A stretch of DNA of 64,000 nt from Naegleria gruberi (taxonomy: Eukaryota): assembly GCA_000004985.1 (NCBI GenBank), contig GG738851.1; one strand, given 5' to 3'. A model generated the notes under the pieces. That model made no database searches. It was not told the DNA's origin and saw only the letters and a program-made list of their open reading frames with translations. Below are positions 15,581 through 63,712 of the stretch, in pieces (the stretch's first letter is position 1; each line of letters begins with the position of its first letter). A program made the translations under genes and the position numbers.

Positions 15581-15881
15581 AAATCCTTAATACATTGAAA
15601 TATGGTAATGTACAAAGCAGTGTGTATTAAAGGAAGTGAAATGTTATGGAGAGATGCCATAAATAACAAGGTTCAAGATTTTATTACATTTTTTCAATGT
15701 TTATACTGGAATGATTACAAACGATTCGTTTCTATCGCTAACACACATTGACATAACTTGTCAACAAGAACTACACACAACTTGACACAGCATGTGGTAC
15801 ACATTGATTGGCTTGTCATTAGTTGACCAACACAAAATGGGTGAACTGGACACTAATTTGTTGTGCTAAATAACAAAAAAA

Positions 15882-17723
15882 ATGAAACTGTTCGGTCTTG
15901 TTGTTATTTTACTAATTGTGTTCAGTCAACTGACCAATGGTTTAGATTATGTATCAATTTCTGACTATGGCGCCATCGCGGATGGTATCACAGATAACAC
16001 TGCATTCATTAGCAAGGCAATTTCTGATGCAAAGGCCAAGAATTTAACACGAGTTTATGTGCCTCCATCTTCCAAACCATATCTTCACAATAATTTAATT
16101 ATTCTTGATGGTATTTTGTTATATGGTGATGGATACTTGTCATGGTTGCATGGATCTAACACTGAAGCATCACCAATCAAATTGATTGGAAACAATTCAG
16201 GTGTTAAAAATCTTCGGTTGACCAGTATAGATCAGAACAGAAGAAGTGTTCCATGGGCCACAACTGTTTGGTGCTATTTTGCAACTAATTTTCTTGTAGA
16301 TAACATTTGGGCTGAACCAATGGATGGAAAAGGTTACACTTACAATACAACACTTGTTCATGGAGTTGGTGGAATTTTCATTTATGGTTGTGAAAATGGA
16401 ACCGTTTCGAATAACAATTTGAATTATACATATGCTGACAGTATTCACAATACTCACACTACCAAATCAGTCCAAATTTTCAATAATATGATTGAGAATA
16501 GTGGAGATGACGGTATTGCTTCTGTTTCTTATAATGGAAATGAAATTAACCGAAACTTGGTTATTTTCAAAAACTATGTCAAGGGCAATAGATGGGGAAG
16601 AGGTATTACAAACATTGGAGGTGATCAAATCATTATTGAGGATAATACAGTTGAAGCTGGAACTGCTGCAGCAATTTGGTTGGCAGCTGAATATTATTAC
16701 AATACTCTATCTCCTTCCAATACGATTGTTAGAAGAAACAAAGTAATAAGAGCAGGATCAGCTGATGGGAAATGTTATGGGCCTAATACGATTCCATCTA
16801 TGGGTATTAATAATTCTAATTTTCCATTTAAGGCAAATAATATTCAATTTGTGGACAATGTAGTTATGGACTCATGTTTGGATGGAATTGTAATTGGTGG
16901 AACTGATGTCAAGAACGTTGCCATTGCTGGAAACACATTCATTAACCAAAGAGCTGGTGCATTCTTCACAACAAGTAATTCCTCTCAAATTTTCTTCCTC
17001 AACAATCGTGTAGAAAATTCGAGTATCAACTCTATTGTTACCATCAATTATCAAGATACCTTAATCATTGATGGAAATACTCTCGTCAATGCCATTACAA
17101 ATATGCAAGGCAGAACACAAGTTGTCTATATCATTAAGGCAGGTCGAGTTCAATTTACAAATAATAGATATTCACAATATGTTCCAACTGGATCCAATAC
17201 AATAATTCAATTAGGATCTGCTGATTCAGTTGTTAATGATGATAGCGACTCGAAGCTTTCAACTAAGGTACCAAGTAATGTTGCTTCCTTTGCCATTCCA
17301 ACAATTCAGGATTTGGAATTTAATTTTACAACTAATGGAAATGTTGTAACAGTGACAGAATCTCAAATTCTCTCCAAACTTTCATTGGATTCTTCATTGT
17401 TTTCTCTATTAGTTGGATTTTCTGGTGTTGGTGGAAAGGTTGATACCAGTTTCGATAGAAAAACCATGACATTTAGTTTTTCAAATGATTTGAAAAGTGG
17501 CACTTTCAAATATTCAGTTCAATCTGTATTGGAATCTTCTGCTCAAACAGCTAATATTAGAGTGAATAGAATTGCAATTCCAATAGTTGCAGAATCGTCA
17601 AAGCCAAAACCAAAACCTTCTTCAAGTTACATTAATAAGGCAGTCTCTGATGGAAGTACTATTTGTTTTGCTCACCAATTGATTGTAATTGTACTCAGTT
17701 TTATGCTTGTATTACTCTTTTAA
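15882..17723 (+). CDS. Secreted right-handed parallel beta-helix (pectin-lyase-fold) protein with a C-terminal hydrophobic GPI-like signal
   Basis: Signal peptide MKLFGLVVILLIVFSQLTNG. Repetitive N/I/V/G-rich PbH1-like turns (NNMIENSGDDGIAS, GNRWGRGITNIGGDQIIIEDNTV, VDNVVMDSCLDGIVIGG). C-terminus is CFAHQLIVIVLSFMLVLLF. Confidence 0.6.
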   Translation: MKLFGLVVILLIVFSQLTNGLDYVSISDYGAIADGITDNTAFISKAISDAKAKNLTRVYVPPSSKPYLHNNLIILDGILLYGDGYLSWLHGSNTEASPIKLIGNNSGVKNLRLTSIDQNRRSVPWATTVWCYFATNFLVDNIWAEPMDGKGYTYNTTLVHGVGGIFIYGCENGTVSNNNLNYTYADSIHNTHTTKSVQIFNNMIENSGDDGIASVSYNGNEINRNLVIFKNYVKGNRWGRGITNIGGDQIIIEDNTVEAGTAAAIWLAAEYYYNTLSPSNTIVRRNKVIRAGSADGKCYGPNTIPSMGINNSNFPFKANNIQFVDNVVMDSCLDGIVIGGTDVKNVAIAGNTFINQRAGAFFTTSNSSQIFFLNNRVENSSINSIVTINYQDTLIIDGNTLVNAITNMQGRTQVVYIIKAGRVQFTNNRYSQYVPTGSNTIIQLGSADSVVNDDSDSKLSTKVPSNVASFAIPTIQDLEFNFTTNGNVVTVTESQILSKLSLDSSLFSLLVGFSGVGGKVDTSFDRKTMTFSFSNDLKSGTFKYSVQSVLESSAQTANIRVNRIAIPIVAESSKPKPKPSSSYINKAVSDGSTICFAHQLIVIVLSFMLVLLF

Positions 17724-17779
17724 AAACAAATCATTTAGATAATTCTAAACATTAGAATAAAAAAACAAATCATTTATGA

Positions 17780-18577
17780 TTATTCCCAAACTCTTTGATT
17801 TTTCAATAGACAACACAGAACCAATTCATGTCCAAATGGTTTGGATGTATCTTCAAAACATTCTTTCAATGTTTTACCATCATAATTGTATCCATCAAAT
17901 CCAAGAATTTGAATATTCATTCCACTATTGACCATTTCTTCCAGTTTCTTATAAGCTTCAGTTTCGACAACTTTCTCAGCATAAAGTGGACAATAAATTT
18001 TCCTTCTAGCTTGCATATAATTAAATTTCTCTCCCTTCCACCATGAATACAATGGTTTCTCCCTCTTTACATGTCTATGAGCTTTCTCATCCTTCCATCC
18101 TTTTGTTCTTCTTTCAAAAAACTCAGAATTTGGAACTTTGGTCAATTGACCATTATCATTTCTAACTTGTTCCTCTTCTCCTGGAAATACCTTTGAAAAT
18201 TGCCATAAATTCTCCAAATTTGTAATTGTACACTTCTCACTTCCATGTTCATATTCATATGGGCCTAATTTCATTGGTGACAATTCCTTGAATATTCCAC
18301 TAGCTCCAGAACAACAATTTACATTCTTGTAACCTGTCACGATTGGCCACTTTTTATTTCCCTTTGAGAAACGACCTGGTAATTTATCGCAACGAACATC
18401 TCCTTTGGAATTTCTCTTCTTATTCAATTCTTGTTGTTTCTTGACGGATTGATCGTGTTGTTTCTTTGCTTGTTTTTCTAGATCTTGTTCGGTGATTTCA
18501 ATGACTTCATTCTTTTTCTTCTGTTTGATGGTTTGCTTTTTCTTTGTTGTGTTGTTACTGGTTGATTGTTTGCCCAT
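17780..18577 (-). CDS. Hypothetical Lys-rich protein (basic N-terminus, Cys-containing core)
   Basis: 265-aa ORF with ATG start. No confident domain assignment. A weak NADAR-like resemblance was considered and not accepted. Confidence 0.4.
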   Translation of the reverse strand: MGKQSTSNNTTKKKQTIKQKKKNEVIEITEQDLEKQAKKQHDQSVKKQQELNKKRNSKGDVRCDKLPGRFSKGNKKWPIVTGYKNVNCCSGASGIFKELSPMKLGPYEYEHGSEKCTITNLENLWQFSKVFPGEEEQVRNDNGQLTKVPNSEFFERRTKGWKDEKAHRHVKREKPLYSWWKGEKFNYMQARRKIYCPLYAEKVVETEAYKKLEEMVNSGMNIQILGFDGYNYDGKTLKECFEDTSKPFGHELVLCCLLKNQRVWE

Positions 18578-18703
18578 TTTTTTTTGAATATTAATTATTA
18601 ACTAAATGAAAAACTTTGATTTCCATTTATTACTGGAAGTGCAAATTCACCAACTTCAATCAACACAAACATTTTGAACACCGTGTTCTATTTTATAGAA
18701 AAA

Positions 18704-19618
18704 TTAATTCTGTCCATAAACATTAATATCTCTAAAGGTAATATTAAGTCTGGCCGATAACACTCCCTTTCTCTTTGGTACACAATGTTGATAGTGTTTC
18801 TGAGTGGCTCCATTCATAATCAATAAACATCCATTCTCCAATGATTTTGTAATAATTTCACCCTTCTTTTGAATTGGTGATTGAGTTGTATTCGATGAGT
18901 TGGTGTTTTGTTTTGGCATGGGTCTTAATTGAAAATCTCTACTCGCTCCCAATGAAACAGAAGCAATTGAAAAGCCACTTGCTTCTCTATCAGCATGCCA
19001 TCCAATCAGATCATCCCCATCATCATAACGATTAATCAATGCAGCTTCATATTTTTCTCCAATCAATTCTTCCAATCTCTTTTTCAAGTTGAGTAATGGC
19101 TCTGGCCAATCTCTTTGGAGTTTTACCATATCATTATAAACTCGAGAAACACTTCCATCATTTGTATCAACAACAGAATCAGTCTCATTCCTAGTAATGG
19201 GTTTACCAAAGAATGCAACCTTTCTCTTTGAAACAACATCCTTTCCATACATGTTATATTTGGGACTAGTCCACTCACACTTCTCCATCAGACAATCAAA
19301 TAATTCCTTCGATTCCCGTTGGGAGAGAAATCTTTCCATATATCTGACCTGTACTCCAGTATCCTTCTCATTCAGAATAAAGGTAAACTCCTGATTCCGA
19401 TGATGATGAAGATTCTTCTTCTTCAATTCAAATTTCTGTTCATTATTTTCATTCAAAATTATTTCTTCCTCATCATTGATGAGAATTGGATTTTCCGCAC
19501 TCGATGTTAACAGTTCTCTTGATTCTTGCTTGATTTTCTTGGGTGAGGCATTGAAGAAATCGGTGATTGACTTTCTTTTCATTTTTTTTTGAATAGTTCT
19601 AGCCGTCACTCGAACCAT
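18704..19618 (-). CDS. ALKBH-like: AlkB-family 2OG-Fe(II) dioxygenase (DNA/RNA demethylase-like)
   Basis: 304-aa ORF. HxD iron ligands in IGWHADRE. Second His in LLIMNGATQKHYQHCV. RxNxTFR motif in SARLNITFRD. SLGASRDFQLR strand. Confidence 0.7.
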   Translation of the reverse strand: MVRVTARTIQKKMKRKSITDFFNASPKKIKQESRELLTSSAENPILINDEEEIILNENNEQKFELKKKNLHHHRNQEFTFILNEKDTGVQVRYMERFLSQRESKELFDCLMEKCEWTSPKYNMYGKDVVSKRKVAFFGKPITRNETDSVVDTNDGSVSRVYNDMVKLQRDWPEPLLNLKKRLEELIGEKYEAALINRYDDGDDLIGWHADREASGFSIASVSLGASRDFQLRPMPKQNTNSSNTTQSPIQKKGEIITKSLENGCLLIMNGATQKHYQHCVPKRKGVLSARLNITFRDINVYGQN

Positions 19619-19749
19619 TGTATTTTCTAGAAACTATGCTTCAGTGGAGAGCTGCTTATAAGCATCTACAATGAAAATAAACCCAACACGTTTATCTATT
19701 TTCCACTAATAGGTATATTAGTTATGATTAAGATTTTACCTCAATGAAT

Positions 19750-19867
19750 GGCTACGGCCATATCACGATGAATGCACCTCATCCCGTCCGATTTGAGAAG
19801 TTAAGCATCGTCGAGCCACATCAGTACTGAGGTTGGAGACAACTTGGGAACCTGTGGTGCTGTAGTC
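19750..19867 (+). rRNA. 5S: 5S ribosomal RNA gene (copy 1)
   Basis: The sequence GGCTACGGCCATATCACGATGAATGCACCTCATCCCGTCCGATTTGAGAAGTTAAGCATCGTCGAGCCACATCAGTACTGAGGTTGGAGACAACTTGGGAACCTGTGGTGCTGTAGTC has the conserved 5S blocks CCCGTCCGAT, AAGTTAAGC and GGGAACC. Helix I closes by 5'/3' complementarity. A TTTTT run follows immediately. Ends are approximate to +/-3 nt. Confidence 0.85.
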
Positions 19868-19872
19868 TTTTT
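19868..19872 (+). terminator. Pol III T-run terminator of 5S copy 1
   Basis: TTTTT lies directly after the 5S 3' end. Confidence 0.5.
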
Positions 19873-20055
19873 ATCTTTCAGTCTATGCCAATTTCATTTA
19901 TGATCAAGTTTAAGAAATTTACAATTAGTTCATGTCGACAATCTGTGTAAAGACGCTGAAAGATCATTCGAAAAAAATGAGCAAACGAAAAAGACAAGAT
20001 TTGGAAAATCATCAATTAATTAATTATTCGGAGGAAATTCACTAACAATACTATT

Positions 20056-20764
20056 GTGGAAGAGAAATCAAAAGTTGCGAAACAGATATTTTCAGATGAT
20101 ATTTGTTTTGAAATAATTTCCATGCTTGATGATTCGTGGTTTATTTTAAATAATTGTTCTTTAATTTCAAAACAATTCTTTAATGTGATCAAGGAACGTT
20201 CAAAACTTGTTATTCAATTTAAAACAAAATTTACAAAGAAAAGAATTAAATTATTCATGAAAAGTCAATTTATGAATAGTATGGTTAATGTTAAATTTGC
20301 TTGACTCGAGAGAAAAAGCCAAATTCATCAGTGAAATGAAACAATTATCATCACTGAATGTTTATAACAATGAAATTGGTTGCGAAGGAGCCAAATATAT
20401 AAGTGAAATGCAACAATTAACATCAGTTGATATTTATTACAATGAAATTGGTGATGAAGGAGTCAAATATATCAGTGAAATGAAACAATTATCATCACTT
20501 AATGTTTATAACAATGAAATTGGTGATGAAGGAGTCAAATACATCAGTGAAATGAAACAATTAACATCACTTAATATTCCTGACAATCGAATTAGTGTTG
20601 AAGGAGTCAAATATATCAGTGAAATGAAACAATTAACATCACTTGATATTTCTTATAATGAAATTGGTGATGAAGGAGTCAAATATATCAGTGAAATGAA
20701 ACAATTATCATCACTTAATATTTCTTACAATGAAATTGAATTTTGGCAGGGGGGCGGAAAGTGA
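20056..20764 (+). CDS. F-box / leucine-rich-repeat (RI-type, 24-aa repeat) protein. The frame shifts by +1 near 20300 (possible pseudogene or assembly error). The 3' end is altered by a transposon insertion
   Basis: ORF 20056..20304 has an F-box-like segment DICFEIISMLDDSWFILNNCSLISKQFFNVI. ORF 20288..20764, in the next frame, has six tandem repeats xGVKYISEMKQLxSLNxxxNEIGDEG. No GT..AG intron reconciles the two frames. The terminal codons EFWQGGGK* run into the element at 20747. Confidence 0.5.
20311..20745 (+). repeat. Tandem 72-bp coding repeats (six LRR units) with high nucleotide identity
   Basis: Near-identical units ggtgatgaaggagtcaaatatatcagtgaaatgaaacaatta... recur every 72 nt. Confidence 0.6.
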
Positions 20765-21684
20765 AGAAAAATGATGAGAAAGGAAAAAATAAACAAAAAA
20801 ACAACCAGTTTAATTTTCTGAACAACCAAAACCAAAGCCATGTTTCAGACCTTGTAAAGTAACTTTCTGATTATTAGCCAGAAATGCTTAAGAATCAACT
20901 TTTTCGTAACTCCACAAACAGTACAGCAAAAGGGTTTTGCCATTTTTTGGAAGTTTTTTGTAAATAAAAATGCATAATAATTGTGATTGAGATTAAACAT
21001 TATTATCTGCCACATCGAAGAAACAATTCCAACCTTTGATATTTGGAATATATCATTACTACATGAATTATCGCGATTTGACAGAAGCTATTTTTTATTT
21101 TTTGCTTCTATCTTAAGAACGAAAGTTAGCCATCACACTCATTCAATTTCATACCAAAACCAAGCGTACACAGAGAGTTCAAAAAATCCTCCAGCCACAA
21201 CGAAGGAATCTTTTAAAGGTGTCATGTGTTCAATTATTGAACTTTATGAAATTTAAAAGTAACTGAGAGAAGCTATTTTTTTATTTCATCGTATTTATTT
21301 TTTTTAATACTTCCTAAATAGTGCATGTGTTTTTAGCTTAAAATTTAATTCTGAAAATATGCTGTTTACGATAAATACTTCACAGAAATGAAAAATTCCA
21401 AGATGAGAAATATATATATTGGTACTGAAATGTCTTCAAATTGCTAAAGTTTTGGGAAACATCATCCTCGACCCTGAGAGTATCTATGTGAATAAATTCT
21501 AGACAACAAGACGTGAATATGTGAATTAAAATCGATATTGTGAAACTTCACCTGTTTATAGAACTGTAACAGATTATTGGATGTATAGAGTTGTATATTT
21601 ATTGAAAAAACATATATCGACTTGGAACCACTTTGACAATTCTCAACATTTTCGCTCGGCTGATACCAACTTTCCGCCCCCCTG
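20747..21684. mobile_element. Non-autonomous DNA transposon (MITE-like, hAT-like), 938 bp, 15-bp terminal inverted repeats and an 8-bp target-site duplication
   Basis: The left TIR CAGGGGGGCGGAAAG (20747..20761) is the exact reverse complement of the right TIR CTTTCCGCCCCCCTG (21670..21684). The direct repeat AATTTTGG flanks both ends (20739..20746 and 21685..21692). The interior is AT-rich, has an internal direct repeat gaagctattttttatttt, and contains no transposase ORF. A CAGGG terminus plus an 8-bp TSD is typical of hAT elements. Confidence 0.55.
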
Positions 21685-21875
21685 AATTTTGGTAAGGGGT
21701 TTGTAGTCCTCTCCCGCCAAGTTTAATCCACTTTTCACTAGCAAATAAAATGCCAGAAATTCACTGATAATCCACCTGCTGGTGGAAAAGCGTATTCTGC
21801 TTTAAATAACTCTCTGCGTTCTTGGTCCAATTTTCCAACAACAAAAAACAACAATAATAATTATTATTAACAGAA

Positions 21876-23444
21876 ATGTCAAGCAGCAGACCAACAAGAG
21901 AAAGAAGATTACCAATTCACTTGGAAGATTATATTGTTGGTGAATTAGATTTACGAAAGAATTATGAAAAGGAAGAAAAGAAGAAACAAAAATTATTATT
22001 AAAGAAGAAGGCTGAAATTTCAAAGAAGGAACAAGCTGAAAAGAGAAAGAAAGAAGCCATGGAAGCAACAAAGAAAAAGAAGGAAGCTGTTAAAAAATCT
22101 ATTAGAAAAAAGCCATCTTCATCATATTATACTTCATCTTCAACAACAATTTCTAAAAGATCTTCATCCGCAATTACACCATATACAGATTATAATAATC
22201 CAAAATTTAAAGTTTTTACATCAACATCTGAAGCAAGAAACAAATTAATTGAAAAAACACCTGGTAATAAGATTTTAAAAGGATCAGATGATGCTTCTAA
22301 ATGGTCAATGTCAAAATTAGATTCATCAATTAGATACAAATCACTTAATATTTCAGATATTTTAAGTGGATGTTATTATGTACCAGGTAATAATCACAAA
22401 TTAGATACAACTGGTAGTGATAGAGTACCCACAGTTCAAATTTGTTTTTCATTTGATACAACTGGTTCAATGTCTTCATATTTAAATAATTTGAAATTTA
22501 AATTACAAACTATTTGTCAACAATTAATGAATGATGTTAGAGGTTTAGAAATTGCAATTATTGCACATGGTGATTATGAAGATTCTAAAGATAACGGTTC
22601 ATATTGTTTATACAAATTAGATTTTACAACAGATATTGAACAAATTATTTCATTTGTTCAATCAATTAATTCAACAAGTGGTTATGATGGAGATGAATGT
22701 TATGAAGCTGTTTTATTAGAAGCTCAATCTTTATCTTGGGTTAATGTTGAAAATACATTTACAAATAGATCACTTGTTGTAATTGGTGATGCTGATCCTC
22801 ACAAATCAAATGAATGGTTTAATATTGATTGGAAACAAGAAACAAGTAATTTATTTGATAATCATCATGTTAAAATTCATAGTGTTAGATGTGGTTCATC
22901 TTCATGGTCAACAAAAGATTTTTACAAAACAATTTCGGAAGAAACAGGTGGATCTGAATATTTATTAGATACATTTGAAAAAACAATTGAAATGTTTTGT
23001 GGTTTAATTTATAGAGAAGCTGCTGATAATATTATGATGAATGATACAACAATGCAAGCACATATTGATGGAGCAGTTTCAGGTGAAGTTACAATTGTTA
23101 AACCAACAATGTCTTCAAGTGATAAGATGATTGATGATGGTGAAAAGAGTGATGATGTTACATCATTAGGTTCATATATTGTTACAGATGATGATATTTT
23201 AAAGATTCACACTGCAATTCATAGTACTTGTACAGAAGTTAAAATTAATGGTATTGAATTTGCAATTCAAATGAATGAAAGTTCATGTAGATTTGTAAGA
23301 GTTGATGGAGTTGTCTATATTGAACAAAATAAGGAAAAGAAGACTAAGTATGCCAAGATGGCTTTAGAAGGAAAGAAATTAACTTGGATTTGTCATGCTG
23401 GTAATTGGGGTCTTATCATTGATGATAAAATTGAAAAGAGATAG
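21876..23444 (+). CDS. von Willebrand factor A (vWA) domain protein with a Lys/Glu-rich N-terminus
   Basis: 522-aa ORF. MIDAS-like DTTGSMSS motif in VQICFSFDTTGSMSSYLNNL, then IAIIAHGDYED and GYDGDECYEAVL. Confidence 0.6.
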   Translation: MSSSRPTRERRLPIHLEDYIVGELDLRKNYEKEEKKKQKLLLKKKAEISKKEQAEKRKKEAMEATKKKKEAVKKSIRKKPSSSYYTSSSTTISKRSSSAITPYTDYNNPKFKVFTSTSEARNKLIEKTPGNKILKGSDDASKWSMSKLDSSIRYKSLNISDILSGCYYVPGNNHKLDTTGSDRVPTVQICFSFDTTGSMSSYLNNLKFKLQTICQQLMNDVRGLEIAIIAHGDYEDSKDNGSYCLYKLDFTTDIEQIISFVQSINSTSGYDGDECYEAVLLEAQSLSWVNVENTFTNRSLVVIGDADPHKSNEWFNIDWKQETSNLFDNHHVKIHSVRCGSSSWSTKDFYKTISEETGGSEYLLDTFEKTIEMFCGLIYREAADNIMMNDTTMQAHIDGAVSGEVTIVKPTMSSSDKMIDDGEKSDDVTSLGSYIVTDDDILKIHTAIHSTCTEVKINGIEFAIQMNESSCRFVRVDGVVYIEQNKEKKTKYAKMALEGKKLTWICHAGNWGLIIDDKIEKR

Positions 23445-23678
23445 GAAACCAATCCTTAAAAACCATAGTCGAGTGTAAATAAAACTTTAATCAAAAATTT
23501 TCGTAATTCTAAACGTTCCAATTTCAAACCGAGTGGTGGTATCAGATCCACTTGATGGAATTCTTTTGGAATGGCCTTGGACAGATTCCAATTCCTTATT
23601 TCTTCAATAAGGAATGGATGTAGTCCTAGTGTTTTTAAATTCTCTACTTATATGATAAAGAAAAAGATGGAAATGTAA

Positions 23679-23752
23679 GCAGCGATAGATCAGTTGGTTA
23701 GATCGTAAGCCTAACACGCTTAAGGTCGCGGGTTCAAGCCCCGCTCGCTGTA
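23679..23752 (+). tRNA. tRNA-Val(AAC): tRNA-Val (anticodon AAC)
   Basis: Cloverleaf: acceptor GCAGCGA/TCGCTGT (one G-U), D-stem GATC/GATC, anticodon stem TAAGC/GCTTA, loop CTAACAC, T-arm GCGGG TTCAAGC CCCGC, discriminator A. A T6 run follows at 23758..23763. Confidence 0.9.
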
Positions 23753-23919
23753 ACTTATTTTTTGTTTCTCGATTTATAAAGACCAGTAAATTTTAACGCA
23801 TTATTTTTGGCGCTAGAAACGTTTACAGATTTTCAAAAAAAATTAATGCTCTTATTGTACTAGAAAAACATCAACCAATTTTAAAACATCATCAACACTA
23901 ACAATATATTGGAAGCATA

Positions 23920-26178
23920 ATGCTAAGAAATAACGATTTTGGAGGGGCTACAGTTACCCAGACAAAAAAGATGTCTCACTTTACCCCAACCGATCAAAGA
24001 GAATTATACCGAGATGCAGTAAAACAACAATCATCAAATCCATTCAAATTGGAGAGAGTAGTAAATTATGATGGAATGTTCACGGAGCATGGTTCAAGCT
24101 TTAGATTTGGTACATCTCATAATTATAATCCAAATTATTTTCCTCCTAAAACATTTGTAAAAAGTGGTAGGAATGAGCCTCACATTGAAACAACTCTATC
24201 TGGACCTGACCGATATAAATTTTTCCATAGACCAGTTGTTGGACCTGTGAGTGAGAATGAATTTTTAAGCATGCCAATGAATGAAAAACATACAGTCTAT
24301 GTGACTGATAAACCATTAAAAACGGAAAGAGATGAATCTCAAGAAGAGATTGAATTCCAAGAGGAGGAAATAATATCTCAACCAAGAACTAGAGAAGCTG
24401 GAACACAGTCAATGTATAGAGAAAATGACACTCAAACCATGCCATACTTCCCACCAGTCAGACAAAAATCAGCAAAAACTAATGAAGTGGATTTGAACAA
24501 TCCATACAGTAATCAAAAGGAACGAGCTGTTATGAGACCAGGAGAACAAGTAGAAATGGACCCTGAAGATTACCCCGACTATATGAAAATGCATGATTTA
24601 GTTTTTGAGGATGGTAGGAATGGAGGATTTATTACTGAGGATCACATTAAAATTGTAGATAGAACGAGGAGAAGAAGAGAAGTAGAAGAACAACTGAAAA
24701 GAGTTGGACCAAATATTGATGAACAAGAATTTAAGAATCGAGTCAATATGTTAAAAGACCTTGAAATGATAGAATGGAAGGAAAGAGAGGAGGAAGTTGC
24801 CAAAATGCAGGAAAGGCAAATTGAGCATGTCAGAGCAAAATTTGAGGTTCGAGAACAAGTCAGAGAAATGAAGAGTAGTTCTAGGTTGGAATCAAGATTG
24901 AAAAAGATACAAGAAGAAACAAAAGAAAAACTTGCCAAGATTGAAAAGAAAAAGCTTAAAAACATCAGAAGAACGATCAAGAAGTTTGATAATCCTGAAA
25001 ACACACTTGAAAGAAGAGATATTCTATTCGAATATTCCTTCCCTGCCTCTAGGACCTATGCTCCAATGTTGAGAGATGGTCAAGTCTCGGCTCTCACAAC
25101 CATTGCATATGAAATTAGACCTGCTCTTTTGACAGATCCATTGGGAGTGGAAGAAGTTCAAATGAATCAAGTTAACAAATACCTGACCTCAGAGAATAGA
25201 AACCTCGATAAGGCTCTCCCCATTCGTGATAAATCAGGTGCTGTTGTCGTTGATCCTCTCAAGACAACAATCAATCCAGAAAATAGAAAGCAAAAGGTTG
25301 TAAAGGAACATTTACAATTAGCCATCAAGGAGCTTGAAAAGTTAAAGAATGTAAACGACATCCATGATCGTGTCAAGGAAGTGAAAGAAATGTACAAATC
25401 TACTCCTAGAATTACAAGACCTCCAACACCGACTTTGGAAGATGAAGGCTCTGAAACTGATGTCGTTTTTGATGATTTGGAGAATGCTGCTTCATTCATT
25501 CAAAAATTATTGAGAGGAAGAGCAGCTCAAGAAGAATTTTACGAGGGTAAAGAAAGAAGTATCGAGCTTATTAAGGAATTACAAGCTGTTGAAGAAATTA
25601 AACGAAAGGAAAGAGAACAAGAGAAATCTCACCACTTTAAAGAACAACAAAGAAGACAAAATCTCGACCAAGCAAGAGAAATTGTCATGGACAATATCCA
25701 AGGTAAACTCATCAGTAATGCACTTGACTTTTTATCTAAAGAGCTCATCAGACAAGATGAACTCAAAAGAGTCAAACAATTGGTTGAATTTGCAGAAAAG
25801 GAAAGACACCAAAGAGAACAAGAAGAAATCATTAGAAGAAAGCATGAAGAGGAGGCCAGAAAAAGAAAGGAAAAGATTCAATCAGAAACAATTCAAATTC
25901 ACACCGATACAGTTTCCACTTACCTTCTCGATATTTTCAATGCTTGTTCTGAAAGTTTAGCTGAAAGACAGGCCAGAGAAGAAATACTGCAGGAAAGATT
26001 GTCAGATGAAATACTCAAAGAACGTACAGTAATAACACCTGAAGAAGGAGCAATCAAGGATCTTGTCAAATCCTTCCTTTTACCACAAGTCAAGAGAGAA
26101 GTTCTCAAAAAGAAGATTGACGTTAATCAGAACAAGTTTTTGAATTCAGCCCATTCACTATTCCAATCCATAGAGTAA
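23920..26178 (+). CDS. Charged (Lys/Glu/Arg-rich) coiled-coil protein with an IQ motif
   Basis: 752-aa ORF. IQ motif is FIQKLLRGRAAQ. Long heptad-like K/E/R-rich stretches. The internal antisense ORFs listed by the track are composition artefacts. Confidence 0.5.
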   Translation: MLRNNDFGGATVTQTKKMSHFTPTDQRELYRDAVKQQSSNPFKLERVVNYDGMFTEHGSSFRFGTSHNYNPNYFPPKTFVKSGRNEPHIETTLSGPDRYKFFHRPVVGPVSENEFLSMPMNEKHTVYVTDKPLKTERDESQEEIEFQEEEIISQPRTREAGTQSMYRENDTQTMPYFPPVRQKSAKTNEVDLNNPYSNQKERAVMRPGEQVEMDPEDYPDYMKMHDLVFEDGRNGGFITEDHIKIVDRTRRRREVEEQLKRVGPNIDEQEFKNRVNMLKDLEMIEWKEREEEVAKMQERQIEHVRAKFEVREQVREMKSSSRLESRLKKIQEETKEKLAKIEKKKLKNIRRTIKKFDNPENTLERRDILFEYSFPASRTYAPMLRDGQVSALTTIAYEIRPALLTDPLGVEEVQMNQVNKYLTSENRNLDKALPIRDKSGAVVVDPLKTTINPENRKQKVVKEHLQLAIKELEKLKNVNDIHDRVKEVKEMYKSTPRITRPPTPTLEDEGSETDVVFDDLENAASFIQKLLRGRAAQEEFYEGKERSIELIKELQAVEEIKRKEREQEKSHHFKEQQRRQNLDQAREIVMDNIQGKLISNALDFLSKELIRQDELKRVKQLVEFAEKERHQREQEEIIRRKHEEEARKRKEKIQSETIQIHTDTVSTYLLDIFNACSESLAERQAREEILQERLSDEILKERTVITPEEGAIKDLVKSFLLPQVKREVLKKKIDVNQNKFLNSAHSLFQSIE

Positions 26179-42568: not shown

Positions 42569-42644
42569 ATTGGTTGGAGATGAGTTAAACATCTCTATTA
42601 CAATCACAGCAATGCATAATAAAAACAACTCATCTCCAACCAAT
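42569..42644. repeat. Perfect 18-bp inverted repeat (stem-loop) in a divergent intergenic region
   Basis: ATTGGTTGGAGATGAGTT at 42569..42586 is the exact reverse complement of AACTCATCTCCAACCAAT at 42627..42644. The loop is 40 nt. The track ORF 42507..42800 covering it is almost certainly non-coding. Confidence 0.6.
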
Positions 42645-45544: not shown

Positions 45545-45617
45545 GCCCGTCTAGCTCAGTCGGTAGAGCGCAAGGCTCTTAACCTTGTGGTCGTGGGTTC
45601 GACCCCCACGGTGGGCG
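45545..45617 (+). tRNA. tRNA-Lys(CTT): tRNA-Lys (anticodon CTT)
   Basis: GCCCGTC TA GCTC AGTCGGTA GAGC G CAAGG CTCTTAA CCTTG TGGTC GTGGG TTCGACC CCCAC GGTGGGC G. A T-rich tract TTTCCTTTTG follows. Confidence 0.9.
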
Positions 45618-47857: not shown

Positions 47858-47924
47858 TTCTATTTTATAACATTCATGTCCAGTTTCTACTGTACGATAG
47901 ATTAGGTAGGGATANNNNNNNNNN

Positions 47925-48068
47925 NNNNNNNNNNNNNNNNNNNNNNNNNNNNNNNNNNNNNNNNNNNNNNNNNNNNNNNNNNNNNNNNNNNNNNNNNNNN
48001 NNNNNNNNNNNNNNNNNNNNNNNNNNNNNNNNNNNNNNNNNNNNNNNNNNNNNNNNNNNNNNNNNNNN
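47925..48068. other. Assembly gap (144 N)
   Basis: Run of n characters in the sequence. Confidence 1.
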
Positions 48069-49654: not shown

Positions 49655-49728
49655 GCCTTCCTAGCTCAGTTGGCAGTAGCGCTGTCCTAGTAAGACAGAG
49701 GTCTTGGGTTCGATTCCCAAGGGAGGCA
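49655..49728 (+). tRNA. tRNA-Thr(AGT): tRNA-Thr (anticodon AGT)
   Basis: Acceptor GCCTTCC/GGGAGGC. Anticodon stem CTGTC/GACAG with loop CTAGTAA. T-arm TTGGG TTCGATT CCCAA. Discriminator A. The D-stem is 3 bp plus one mismatch. TTTT lies downstream. Confidence 0.85.
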
Positions 49729-63062: not shown

Positions 63063-63594
63063 GGTTTTGTTTTTTTGAAATGTGGATTTCCGTCAAGGTT
63101 TGGCCACAGGTCGCTTAAAAGTCTTTTTGTACGATCTCACAATGAGAAACTTGTCGAATAGTTTACAATAAATAAAATTCACCAAAGTGCGTTTGTGCCC
63201 CTTCAATATTTACCATCTCATTGTTTTTGAAGGAATAACCTACTTGGCAACACGTGTTTCGGTATTTCGGAAGCAGAGAAGTACATTCAAGTTTACCAAG
63301 AGAACTATTCGAAACAATCTCTTTTTGATCATTGTTCAAAATTGCATTTGAGTTTTACCAAATCATACCACTAATATTCTGGTGAATAACGAAACATTGC
63401 ATAAAAGAAACAATACATTCGCATATCAAAATTAATTGTTATTTCTATCCTCTAGATTATTGTTTGATTGACATTTAAATGAAAAATTAATTGTTTGATG
63501 TTGGTGGGAAATTGAGTAAAATTATCTTTTTTCAAAAATATCCATAAAAAGTTCAACAGTGATAAAGAGTAAAAAGAAGTTATGTGAAGTAAAA

Positions 63595-63712
63595 GACTAC
63601 AGCACCACAGGTTCCCAAGTTGTCTCCAACCTCAGCACTGATGTGGCTCGACGATGCTTAACTTCTCAAATCGGACGGGATGAGGTGCATGAATCGTGAT
63701 ATGGCCGTAGCC
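63595..63712 (-). rRNA. 5S: 5S ribosomal RNA gene (copy 2, inverted relative to copy 1)
   Basis: The reverse complement equals copy 1 except for two small differences: CGATTCATGC (copy 1 CGATGAATGC) and CAGTGCTGAGG (copy 1 CAGTACTGAGG). The same TGAATGG precedes the 5' end and a TTTT run follows the 3' end (GTAGTCTTTTAC). Confidence 0.85.

What the first reader, a model, noticed from the sequence alone, without database searches (positions are those of the whole stretch)
20739..21692. hAT-like non-autonomous transposon inserted exactly on the stop codon of an F-box/LRR gene
The 15-bp TIRs CAGGGGGGCGGAAAG and CTTTCCGCCCCCCTG are perfect, and they are flanked by an 8-bp direct repeat AATTTTGG. 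Removing the element and one TSD copy gives ...AAT GAA ATT GAA TTT TGG TAA (NEIEFW*). The insertion therefore replaced the original stop and now appends QGGGK*. A CAGGG terminus plus an 8-bp TSD is the hAT signature. The element is 938 bp, has no ORF and carries internal direct repeats, so it is a MITE-like deletion derivative. The G6/C6 run of the TIR occurs nowhere else in the 64 kb, so the family is at low copy in this window.
Basis: seen in the sequence. Interest (0 to 1): 0.6.

Follow-up and report, generated by a model that had tools for sequence, protein, structure and literature searches.

The report
Lone hAT-like transposon in Naegleria
A 938-bp non-coding cut-and-paste transposon, hAT-like by its ends, sits at the 3' end of an already broken leucine-rich-repeat gene in the amoeba Naegleria gruberi; it is a real insertion, but an ordinary one.

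Summary
A perfect 16-bp terminal inverted repeat (CAGGGGGGCGGAAAGT; 20747-20762 and 21669-21684) bounds a 938-bp AT-rich segment. It is flanked by a perfect 8-bp direct repeat, AATTTTGG. I estimate this combination at about 3-5e-5 per 64-kb window by chance.

The window is Naegleria gruberi NEG-M nuclear DNA. The 8-bp duplication, the short repeat and the CAGGG terminus (YARNG) match the structural signature of hAT transposons.

Membership is not proven:
- The element has no detectable coding remnant.
- No second copy is in the window, and no related copy turned up in what I could search of the public collections.
- The source genome could not be fetched, so neither other copies nor an autonomous partner could be sought.

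The "hit on the stop codon" is literally true for the 158-codon LRR ORF (…NEIEFW|TAA becomes …EFWQGGGK*). The gene, however, is a pseudogene. Its homology to paralogues runs through three reading frames with two frameshifts and no room for introns, and no close database protein covers it. The coding consequence is therefore probably nil. The element also lies 192 bp upstream of a VWA gene.

Verdict: a real, ordinary transposon insertion of low interest.

The parts
20739..20746 (.). Left copy of the 8-bp target-site duplication, AATTTTGG. It also forms the last 8 nt of the LRR ORF before the original stop.
   Evidence: (D13)
20747..20762 (+). Left terminal inverted repeat, CAGGGGGGCGGAAAGT. Its terminus CAGGG fits YARNG.
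   Evidence: (I4)
20747..21684 (.). The 938-bp non-autonomous element. It is 31% G+C, has no coding homology and no known RNA family.
20762..20764 (+). New stop codon TGA inside the element. The ORF now ends ...EFWQGGGK*.
21669..21684 (-). Right terminal inverted repeat (ACTTTCCGCCCCCCTG on the + strand), 16 of 16 complementary to the left one.
   Evidence: (I4)
21685..21692 (.). Right copy of the 8-bp target-site duplication, AATTTTGG.
   Evidence: (D13)
21693..21695 (+). Original TAA stop of the LRR ORF, now displaced by 946 bp.
19977..20746 (+). Decayed F-box-like/LRR gene (pseudogene). Paralogue homology lies in three frames: 19977-20039, then about 20038-20304, then about 20282-20746. The frameshifts are near 20037-20040 and 20291-20304. 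It carries six 72-nt LRR units.
   Evidence: (D1)
21876..23444 (+). Downstream neighbour: a VWA-domain gene (EFC48369.1). Its ATG is 192 bp from the right end of the element.

Best explanation
This is one insertion of a non-autonomous class II (cut-and-paste) DNA transposon in the nuclear genome of Naegleria gruberi, most probably of the hAT superfamily.

Inferred mechanism:
- A transposase encoded elsewhere bound the 16-bp terminal inverted repeats.
- It excised the element and integrated it through staggered cuts 8 bp apart in the target AATTTTGG.
- Repair of those cuts produced the flanking duplication.

Shown here:
- The target lay at the very end of the last ORF of an F-box-like/LRR family member. 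That gene carries two frameshifts, so the five-codon extension (QGGGK) most likely has no protein-level consequence.
- The only plausible cis effect is on the VWA gene, whose start codon is now 192 bp from the element's right end.
- The perfect repeats and perfect duplication indicate little decay since insertion.

Not shown: the superfamily, the source of the transposase, the copy number and whether the element is still active.
For: - Exact 16-bp terminal inverted repeat plus exact 8-bp direct repeat, immediately adjacent. The joint chance expectation is about 3-5e-5 per window.
- Excision in silico restores a continuous ORF end...NEIEFW-TAA. This resembles the end of paralogue P0119...DIGDNPNW*.
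- An 8-bp duplication, a 10-25-bp terminal repeat and a YARNG terminus are the stated structural features of hAT (PMC3014272; PMC3942097; PMC12730594). All three are met.
- The interior is non-coding and AT-rich like its surroundings (31% versus 29-32% G+C). It has no Pfam, protein-database or Rfam match.
- The host is N. gruberi, where both DNA transposons and retrotransposons have been reported among the classified repeats (PMC12344493).
- Pseudogene status of the target.
Against: - There is only one copy in 64 kb. No related end was found in the metagenome or viral collections.
- The source genome could not be fetched, so mobility as a family is not demonstrated.
- No transposase remnant or partner links it to hAT by homology.
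- The target sequence fits neither known hAT target consensus.
- An 8-bp duplication is not unique to hAT (Zisupton; by recollection also P elements, some MULEs, Merlin and Novosib).
- Subterminal repeated motifs, common in hAT ends, are not evident. There is a single 13-nt block shared by the two ends, E = 0.11.
Confidence: 0.62

Rival explanations
1. It is a real cut-and-paste transposon insertion, but from another superfamily that also makes 8-bp duplications. Candidates are Zisupton/KDZ, P, Merlin, Novosib, a short-repeat MULE, or an undescribed Naegleria lineage. The hAT-like terminus would then be a coincidence.
For: - Zisupton generates 8-bp target-site duplications (PMC12730594).
- There is no transposase homology in the element.
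- The target AATTTTGG fits neither the Ac nor the Buster consensus (read; the consensus sequences are from my own knowledge).
- The G-rich terminal repeat (11 of 16 G+C) is unusual for its 33% G+C host.
Against: - The terminus CAGGG satisfies YARNG exactly, and the 16-bp repeat length is in the hAT range.
- hAT is by far the most widespread 8-bp-duplication superfamily across eukaryotes (PMC3942097).
- By recollection, P termini (CATG...) and the long terminal repeats of MULEs do not fit.
Confidence: 0.25
2. It is part or residue of a larger rearrangement rather than a simple transposition. One example is a segment carried along with the small recent duplication that produced three ~99% identical VWA genes on three scaffolds. 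Another is an assembly artefact at a repeat.
For: - The adjacent VWA gene has two ~99% identical copies on other scaffolds.
- The six neighbouring genes tested are all single-copy in the assembly.
- The extent of the duplicated segment is unknown.
Against: - The repeat-and-duplication boundaries are exact, and excision restores a continuous ORF end. That is the signature of transposition, not of segmental duplication.
- There is no gap or N run nearby; the only N run is at 47915-48068.
- Nothing else in 18578-23950 is repeated in the window except the 5S gene.
Confidence: 0.06
3. The inverted repeat and the direct repeat are fortuitous, and there is no mobile element.
For: - Perfect 16-nt inverted repeats within 5 kb occur in about a third of simulated windows.
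- Lax repeat-plus-duplication combinations occur about 2.5 times per simulated window.
- No second copy is available.
Against: - The joint expectation of a 16 of 16 inverted repeat directly abutted by an 8 of 8 direct repeat is about 3-5e-5 per window.
- The arms hold the only G6 and C6 runs in 64 kb.
- The boundaries interrupt an otherwise continuous ORF end.
Confidence: 0.02

Closest known systems
Non-autonomous hAT elements and hAT MITEs (for example the BuT2-derived short elements of Drosophila willistoni, 532-927 bp; PMC3942097)
   Same: - 8-bp target-site duplication.
- Short perfect terminal inverted repeats.
- YARNG terminus.
- No coding capacity.
- Several hundred bp long, with an AT-rich interior.
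- Located in or next to genes.
   Different: - No related autonomous element is known here.
- There is no evidence of multiple copies.
- The interior shows no similarity to any transposase.
- The target sequence does not fit the Ac or Buster preference.
- The host is a heterolobosean.
Ac/Ds of maize (the type hAT system; my own knowledge)
   Same: - Terminus CAGGG, identical to the first five bases of the Ac/Ds repeat (CAGGGATGAAA).
- 8-bp duplication.
- Ds-like dependence on a transposase supplied in trans (inferred).
   Different: - The repeat sequence beyond base 5 is unrelated.
- No clustered subterminal hexamer motifs were detected.
- There is no sequence homology.
Zisupton / KDZ transposons
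   Same: 8-bp target-site duplication (PMC12730594).
   Different: - The known Zisupton elements are large and protein-coding.
- Their termini were not compared here.
- No coding evidence points either way.

Membership tests
hAT superfamily (DNA transposon) | 8-bp target-site duplication | tested here: met
   A perfect AATTTTGG lies on both sides, directly abutting the terminal repeats. The criterion is taken from PMC3014272, PMC3942097 and PMC12730594.
hAT superfamily (DNA transposon) | Short terminal inverted repeats (about 10-25 bp) | tested here: met
   16 bp, 100% complementary (I4). The range is from PMC3942097.
hAT superfamily (DNA transposon) | Terminal motif 5'-YARNG | tested here: met
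   The terminus is CAGGG at both ends. The motif is from PMC3014272.
hAT superfamily (DNA transposon) | hAT transposase (DDE/RNase-H-like core with hAT dimerisation domain) encoded in the element, or remnants of it | tested here: not met
   - Twenty-six six-frame fragments (1,040 aa) gave no hit at E <= 1 in 5.8 billion protein clusters.
- No Pfam hit at E <= 1 for the eight longest fragments.
- The exhaustive HMMER search with the 89-aa ORF gave one additive artefact only.
- This is the expected result for a non-autonomous element, so it does not exclude membership.
hAT superfamily (DNA transposon) | An autonomous partner in the same genome with matching termini | not testable with these tools
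   - N. gruberi scaffolds are not retrievable.
- The window holds no second match to the terminal repeat.
hAT superfamily (DNA transposon) | Target preference nTnnnnAn (Ac group) or nnnTAnnn (Buster group) | tested here: not met
   AATTTTGG and its complement CCAAAATT fit neither. The consensus sequences are from my own knowledge (Arensburger et al. 2011). This is only a statistical preference, so one site is weak evidence.
hAT superfamily (DNA transposon) | Repeated subterminal transposase-binding motifs | tested here: inconclusive
   Only one shared block was found, AAAATGATGAGAA / AAAATGTTGAGAA, at 22-34 and 33-45 nt from the two ends (E = 0.11). No k-mer is enriched.
MITE (descriptive class) | Short (usually under about 600-800 bp), non-coding, terminal repeat plus duplication, AT-rich, near genes, high copy number | tested here: inconclusive
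   - Met: non-coding, terminal repeat plus duplication, AT-rich, and near genes.
- The length of 938 bp is at or above the usual limit.
- Copy number is unknown: one copy in 64 kb.
- The criteria are those listed in PMC3942097.
F-box/LRR protein gene (the insertion target) | Intact ORF with an F-box followed by LRRs | tested here: not met
   - LRR_6 is strongly present (E = 1.6e-27), but no F-box model matches the N-terminal ORF.
- Homology to paralogues P0119, P0122, P0125 and P0128 is split over three frames with overlapping ends.
- No database protein is more than 74% identical to the LRR ORF.

The most novel reading that the evidence does not exclude
The element could belong to a still-active, low-copy Naegleria transposon lineage with an unusually G-rich terminal repeat. 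Its transposase might not be a canonical hAT. The insertion might be polymorphic between haplotypes or strains, or linked to the recent triplication of the adjacent VWA gene. That would give a handle on ongoing DNA transposition in a heterolobosean.
Probability: 0.07. Interest if true: 0.4.

Novelty: new member of a known kind. Interest (0 to 1): 0.15.

Why it matters
It matters little beyond annotation.
- It adds one well-delimited DNA-transposon insertion to the sparsely classified repeat content of N. gruberi. According to PMC12344493, only a small fraction of that genome's repeats are classified.
- It flags an unannotated F-box-like/LRR pseudogene.
- If other copies or an empty allele exist, the exact boundaries given here make it an easy marker for transposon activity or strain typing.
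- It opens no long-standing question.

Tried and rejected
1. **Giant-virus origin.** I considered this because the window is dense with intron-less ORFs. I rejected it because of CFAP91, RasGEF and EGF/teneurin domains, eukaryote-type tRNAs, and exact matches to N. gruberi proteins.

2. **Fetching the source or allelic scaffolds for an empty-site test.** Three look-ups (the window protein, P0001 and P0118) all returned 'not on record'.

3. **Synteny in N. lovaniensis.** The locus of P0004 (L001) has different neighbours, so it is uninformative.

4. **Protein-level empty-site test.** The search with the LRR ORF found no near-identical protein, filled or empty, in any assembly.

5. **Other copies by DNA pattern.**
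   - A 24-nt degenerate pattern covering both ends found 0 matches in metagenomes.
   - The bare 16-mer gave 2 viral and at least 120 metagenome stretches.
   - Nine of the loci held also have a match at up to 3 mismatches on the opposite strand. All nine are 62-72% G+C, unlike the 31% G+C element, and I did not examine them further.
   - Two loci, L109 and L120, share 10 of 13 further bases but are 50% G+C duplicates of one contig. I judged them chance matches.

6. **Other copies through annotated proteins.** A concatenated six-frame query found nothing.

7. **Hidden RNA gene in the element.** Only sub-threshold U8 and IRE matches appeared (E = 0.12 and 0.4).

8. **The TAA as part of a 5' splice site (TGG|TAAGG).** Any downstream exon would stop within 1-3 codons, and paralogues end at the same point of the repeat. 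I dropped the idea.

9. **The P0143 hit of the 89-aa ORF.** It is the sum of 22 stretches of about 27 bits each against a tandem-repeat translation, so it is an artefact.

10. **A 10-bp duplication (TGAATTTTGG).** This requires the TG to be shared with the right terminal repeat and offsets the arms, so it is less parsimonious than 8 bp (D13).

Full report
**Where the window comes from**

The window is 33% G+C and packed with long intron-poor ORFs. It carries eukaryote-type tRNA genes (Val-AAC, Lys-CTT, Thr-AGT) and two dispersed 5S rRNA genes. It also encodes eukaryotic proteins such as CFAP91, a RasGEF and an EGF/teneurin-like protein.

The 522-aa VWA protein encoded at 21876-23444 is identical to N. 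gruberi EFC48369.1 / XP_002681113.1, on a 693,645-bp scaffold. Six neighbouring ORFs are identical to EFC48365-48367, EFC48370, EFC48496 and EFC48499 on the same scaffold. The window is therefore Naegleria gruberi NEG-M nuclear DNA.

**The observation**

| Feature | Sequence | Coordinates |
|---|---|---|
| Left target-site duplication | AATTTTGG | 20739-20746 |
| Left terminal inverted repeat | CAGGGGGGCGGAAAGT | 20747-20762 |
| Right terminal inverted repeat | exact complement of the left | 21669-21684 |
| Right target-site duplication | AATTTTGG | 21685-21692 |
| Original stop | TAA | 21693-21695 |

The terminal repeat is in fact 16 nt, and the element is 938 bp.

- Removing the element and one duplication copy gives ...NEIEFW-TAA. 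With the element present, the ORF ends ...EFWQGGGK-TGA at 20762-20764.
- The only G6 and C6 runs in the 64 kb are those of the two terminal repeats.

**Is it more than chance?**

- In 150 first-order Markov simulations of the window, a perfect inverted repeat of at least 16 nt within 5 kb appeared in 51. The inverted repeat alone is therefore unremarkable.
- An exact flanking 8-bp direct repeat occurred only 4 times among about 42,000 simulated inverted repeats of at least 11 nt. In the real window this is the only inverted repeat with a flanking repeat of at least 5 bp.
- The joint expectation is about 3e-5 per window, or about 0.02-0.03 for a 41-Mb genome.
- A reverse scan looked for any 8-bp direct repeat enclosing arms matching at 10 or more of 12 positions. 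It gives about 2.5 chance hits per simulated window. The real window has one hit, this one, and it extends to 16 of 16.
- Chance is rejected.

**What the element contains**

- It is 31% G+C, like its flanks.
- Apart from the terminal repeats, its self-similarity is one 23-nt, 91% direct repeat 185 nt apart and a weak 53-nt palindromic stretch.
- The two subterminal regions share a single 13-nt block, AAAATGWTGAGAA (E = 0.11), and show no enriched short motif.
- No Rfam family reaches threshold; the best are U8 at E = 0.12 and IRE at E = 0.4.
- Twenty-six six-frame fragments (1,040 residues) joined into one query gave no hit at E <= 1 among 5.8 billion protein clusters.
- The eight longest fragments match no Pfam family at E <= 1.
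- The exhaustive HMMER search with the 89-codon ORF returned one 2,115-aa tandem-repeat translation. Its score is the sum of 22 stretches of about 27 bits each, so it is an artefact.
- The element is non-coding and shows no transposase remnant.

**The insertion target**

The 'F-box/LRR gene' is a decayed family member.

- The paralogues P0119, P0122, P0125 and P0128 (63-74% identical) are single-frame proteins. They share an N-terminus MSKR.RQD.ENHQ..., an F-box-like segment, and then 24-residue LRRs.
- tblastn of these against the locus places residues 1-20 in one frame (19977-20039). Residues about 21-108 fall in a second frame (about 20038-20304), and residues about 112-260 in a third (about 20282-20746).
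- Consecutive segments overlap by a few nucleotides, so no intron can reconcile them.
- The first shift looks like ATT-TTC shortened to ATTC. The second is a short deletion in the ...VNVKFS..LLDS... linker.
- No protein in the database is more than 74% identical to the 158-aa LRR ORF, although the neighbours are found at 100%.
- Pfam detects LRR_6 (E = 1.6e-27) but no F-box in the N-terminal ORF.
- The insertion does sit exactly between the last sense codon and the stop of the terminal ORF. P0119 ends at a comparable point of the repeat (...DIGDNPNW*), so the reconstructed end is plausible.
- The five-codon extension nevertheless affects a gene that is broken twice upstream. Which event came first cannot be told.
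- The right end of the element is 192 bp from the ATG of the VWA gene. That is the only place where a cis effect seems possible. This is an inference.

**Classification**

The literature held here gives these as structural features typical of hAT:
- an 8-bp target-site duplication and a YARNG terminal motif (PMC3014272);
- terminal inverted repeats of 10-25 bp (PMC3942097);
- hAT 'usually' generates 8-bp duplications (PMC12730594).

All three are met, since CAGGG fits Y-A-R-N-G. N. gruberi is reported to contain both DNA transposons and retrotransposons, with only a small fraction of its repeats classified (PMC12344493).

Points against a firm assignment:
- Zisupton also makes 8-bp duplications. 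From my own knowledge, so do P elements, Merlin, Novosib and some MULEs.
- The target AATTTTGG fits neither the Ac nor the Buster target preference (my own knowledge).
- The defining feature, a hAT transposase in the element or in a partner with the same ends, could not be tested.

I therefore call it hAT-like. I put the probability of true hAT membership at about 0.6, and the probability that it is a genuine transposon insertion of some cut-and-paste family above 0.9.

**Search for other copies and for an empty site**

- Within the window there is no second match to the terminal repeat at up to 3 mismatches. There is no significant match to the interior either (best E = 0.05, 19 nt).
- The source genome and the two scaffolds carrying ~99% identical VWA genes could not be retrieved.
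- The N. lovaniensis locus that could be retrieved is not syntenic.
- A 24-nt degenerate pattern covering either end found nothing in the metagenome collection.
- Nine of those loci also have a match at up to 3 mismatches on the opposite strand. All nine are 62-72% G+C and I did not examine them further. Two loci that extend the match by 10 of 13 bases are duplicates of one 50% G+C contig.

**Verdict**

This is a real, cleanly bounded, non-autonomous DNA-transposon insertion with hAT-type ends. It lies in the last codons of an LRR pseudogene and just upstream of a VWA gene in Naegleria gruberi. It is an ordinary kind of feature in a published genome. Its interest is low unless a genome-wide search shows an active or unusual family.

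Noticed in passing
window 19750-19868 (+) and 63594-63712 (-): Two dispersed 5S rRNA genes (Rfam 105 and 96 bits), 97.6% identical over 127 nt. The first lies 109 nt upstream of the ATG of the decayed LRR gene.
   Followed up: partly
window 21876-23444: The VWA-domain gene (EFC48369.1) has two other ~99% identical copies in the same assembly on different scaffolds (EFC38673.1 and EFC43143.1), differing at a handful of residues. The six neighbouring genes tested are each the only N. gruberi protein in their 90%-identity cluster. This points to a small recent duplication, at most about 5 kb of this window, whose extent is unknown.
   Followed up: partly
window 19977-20746: An F-box-like/LRR family member with two frameshifts, near 20037-20040 and 20291-20304. 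No matching protein exists in the database, so it is an unannotated pseudogene.
   Followed up: yes
L124 (ENA ERZ929261, contig k127_110605) versus window 15592-18626: A metagenome contig 98.75% identical to the window over 3 kb (23 mismatches, 10 gaps). A second N. gruberi-like strain is therefore present in public data and could serve for an empty-site test.
   Followed up: partly
window 23679-23752, 45545-45617, 49655-49728: Three dispersed tRNA genes: Val-AAC, Lys-CTT and Thr-AGT.
   Followed up: no
window 47915-48068: A run of 154 N, which is an assembly gap.
   Followed up: no
window 42569-42644: A perfect 18-nt inverted repeat (ATTGGTTGGAGATGAGTT) with a 40-nt spacer. It is the longest perfect inverted repeat in the window and has no flanking duplication.
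   Followed up: no
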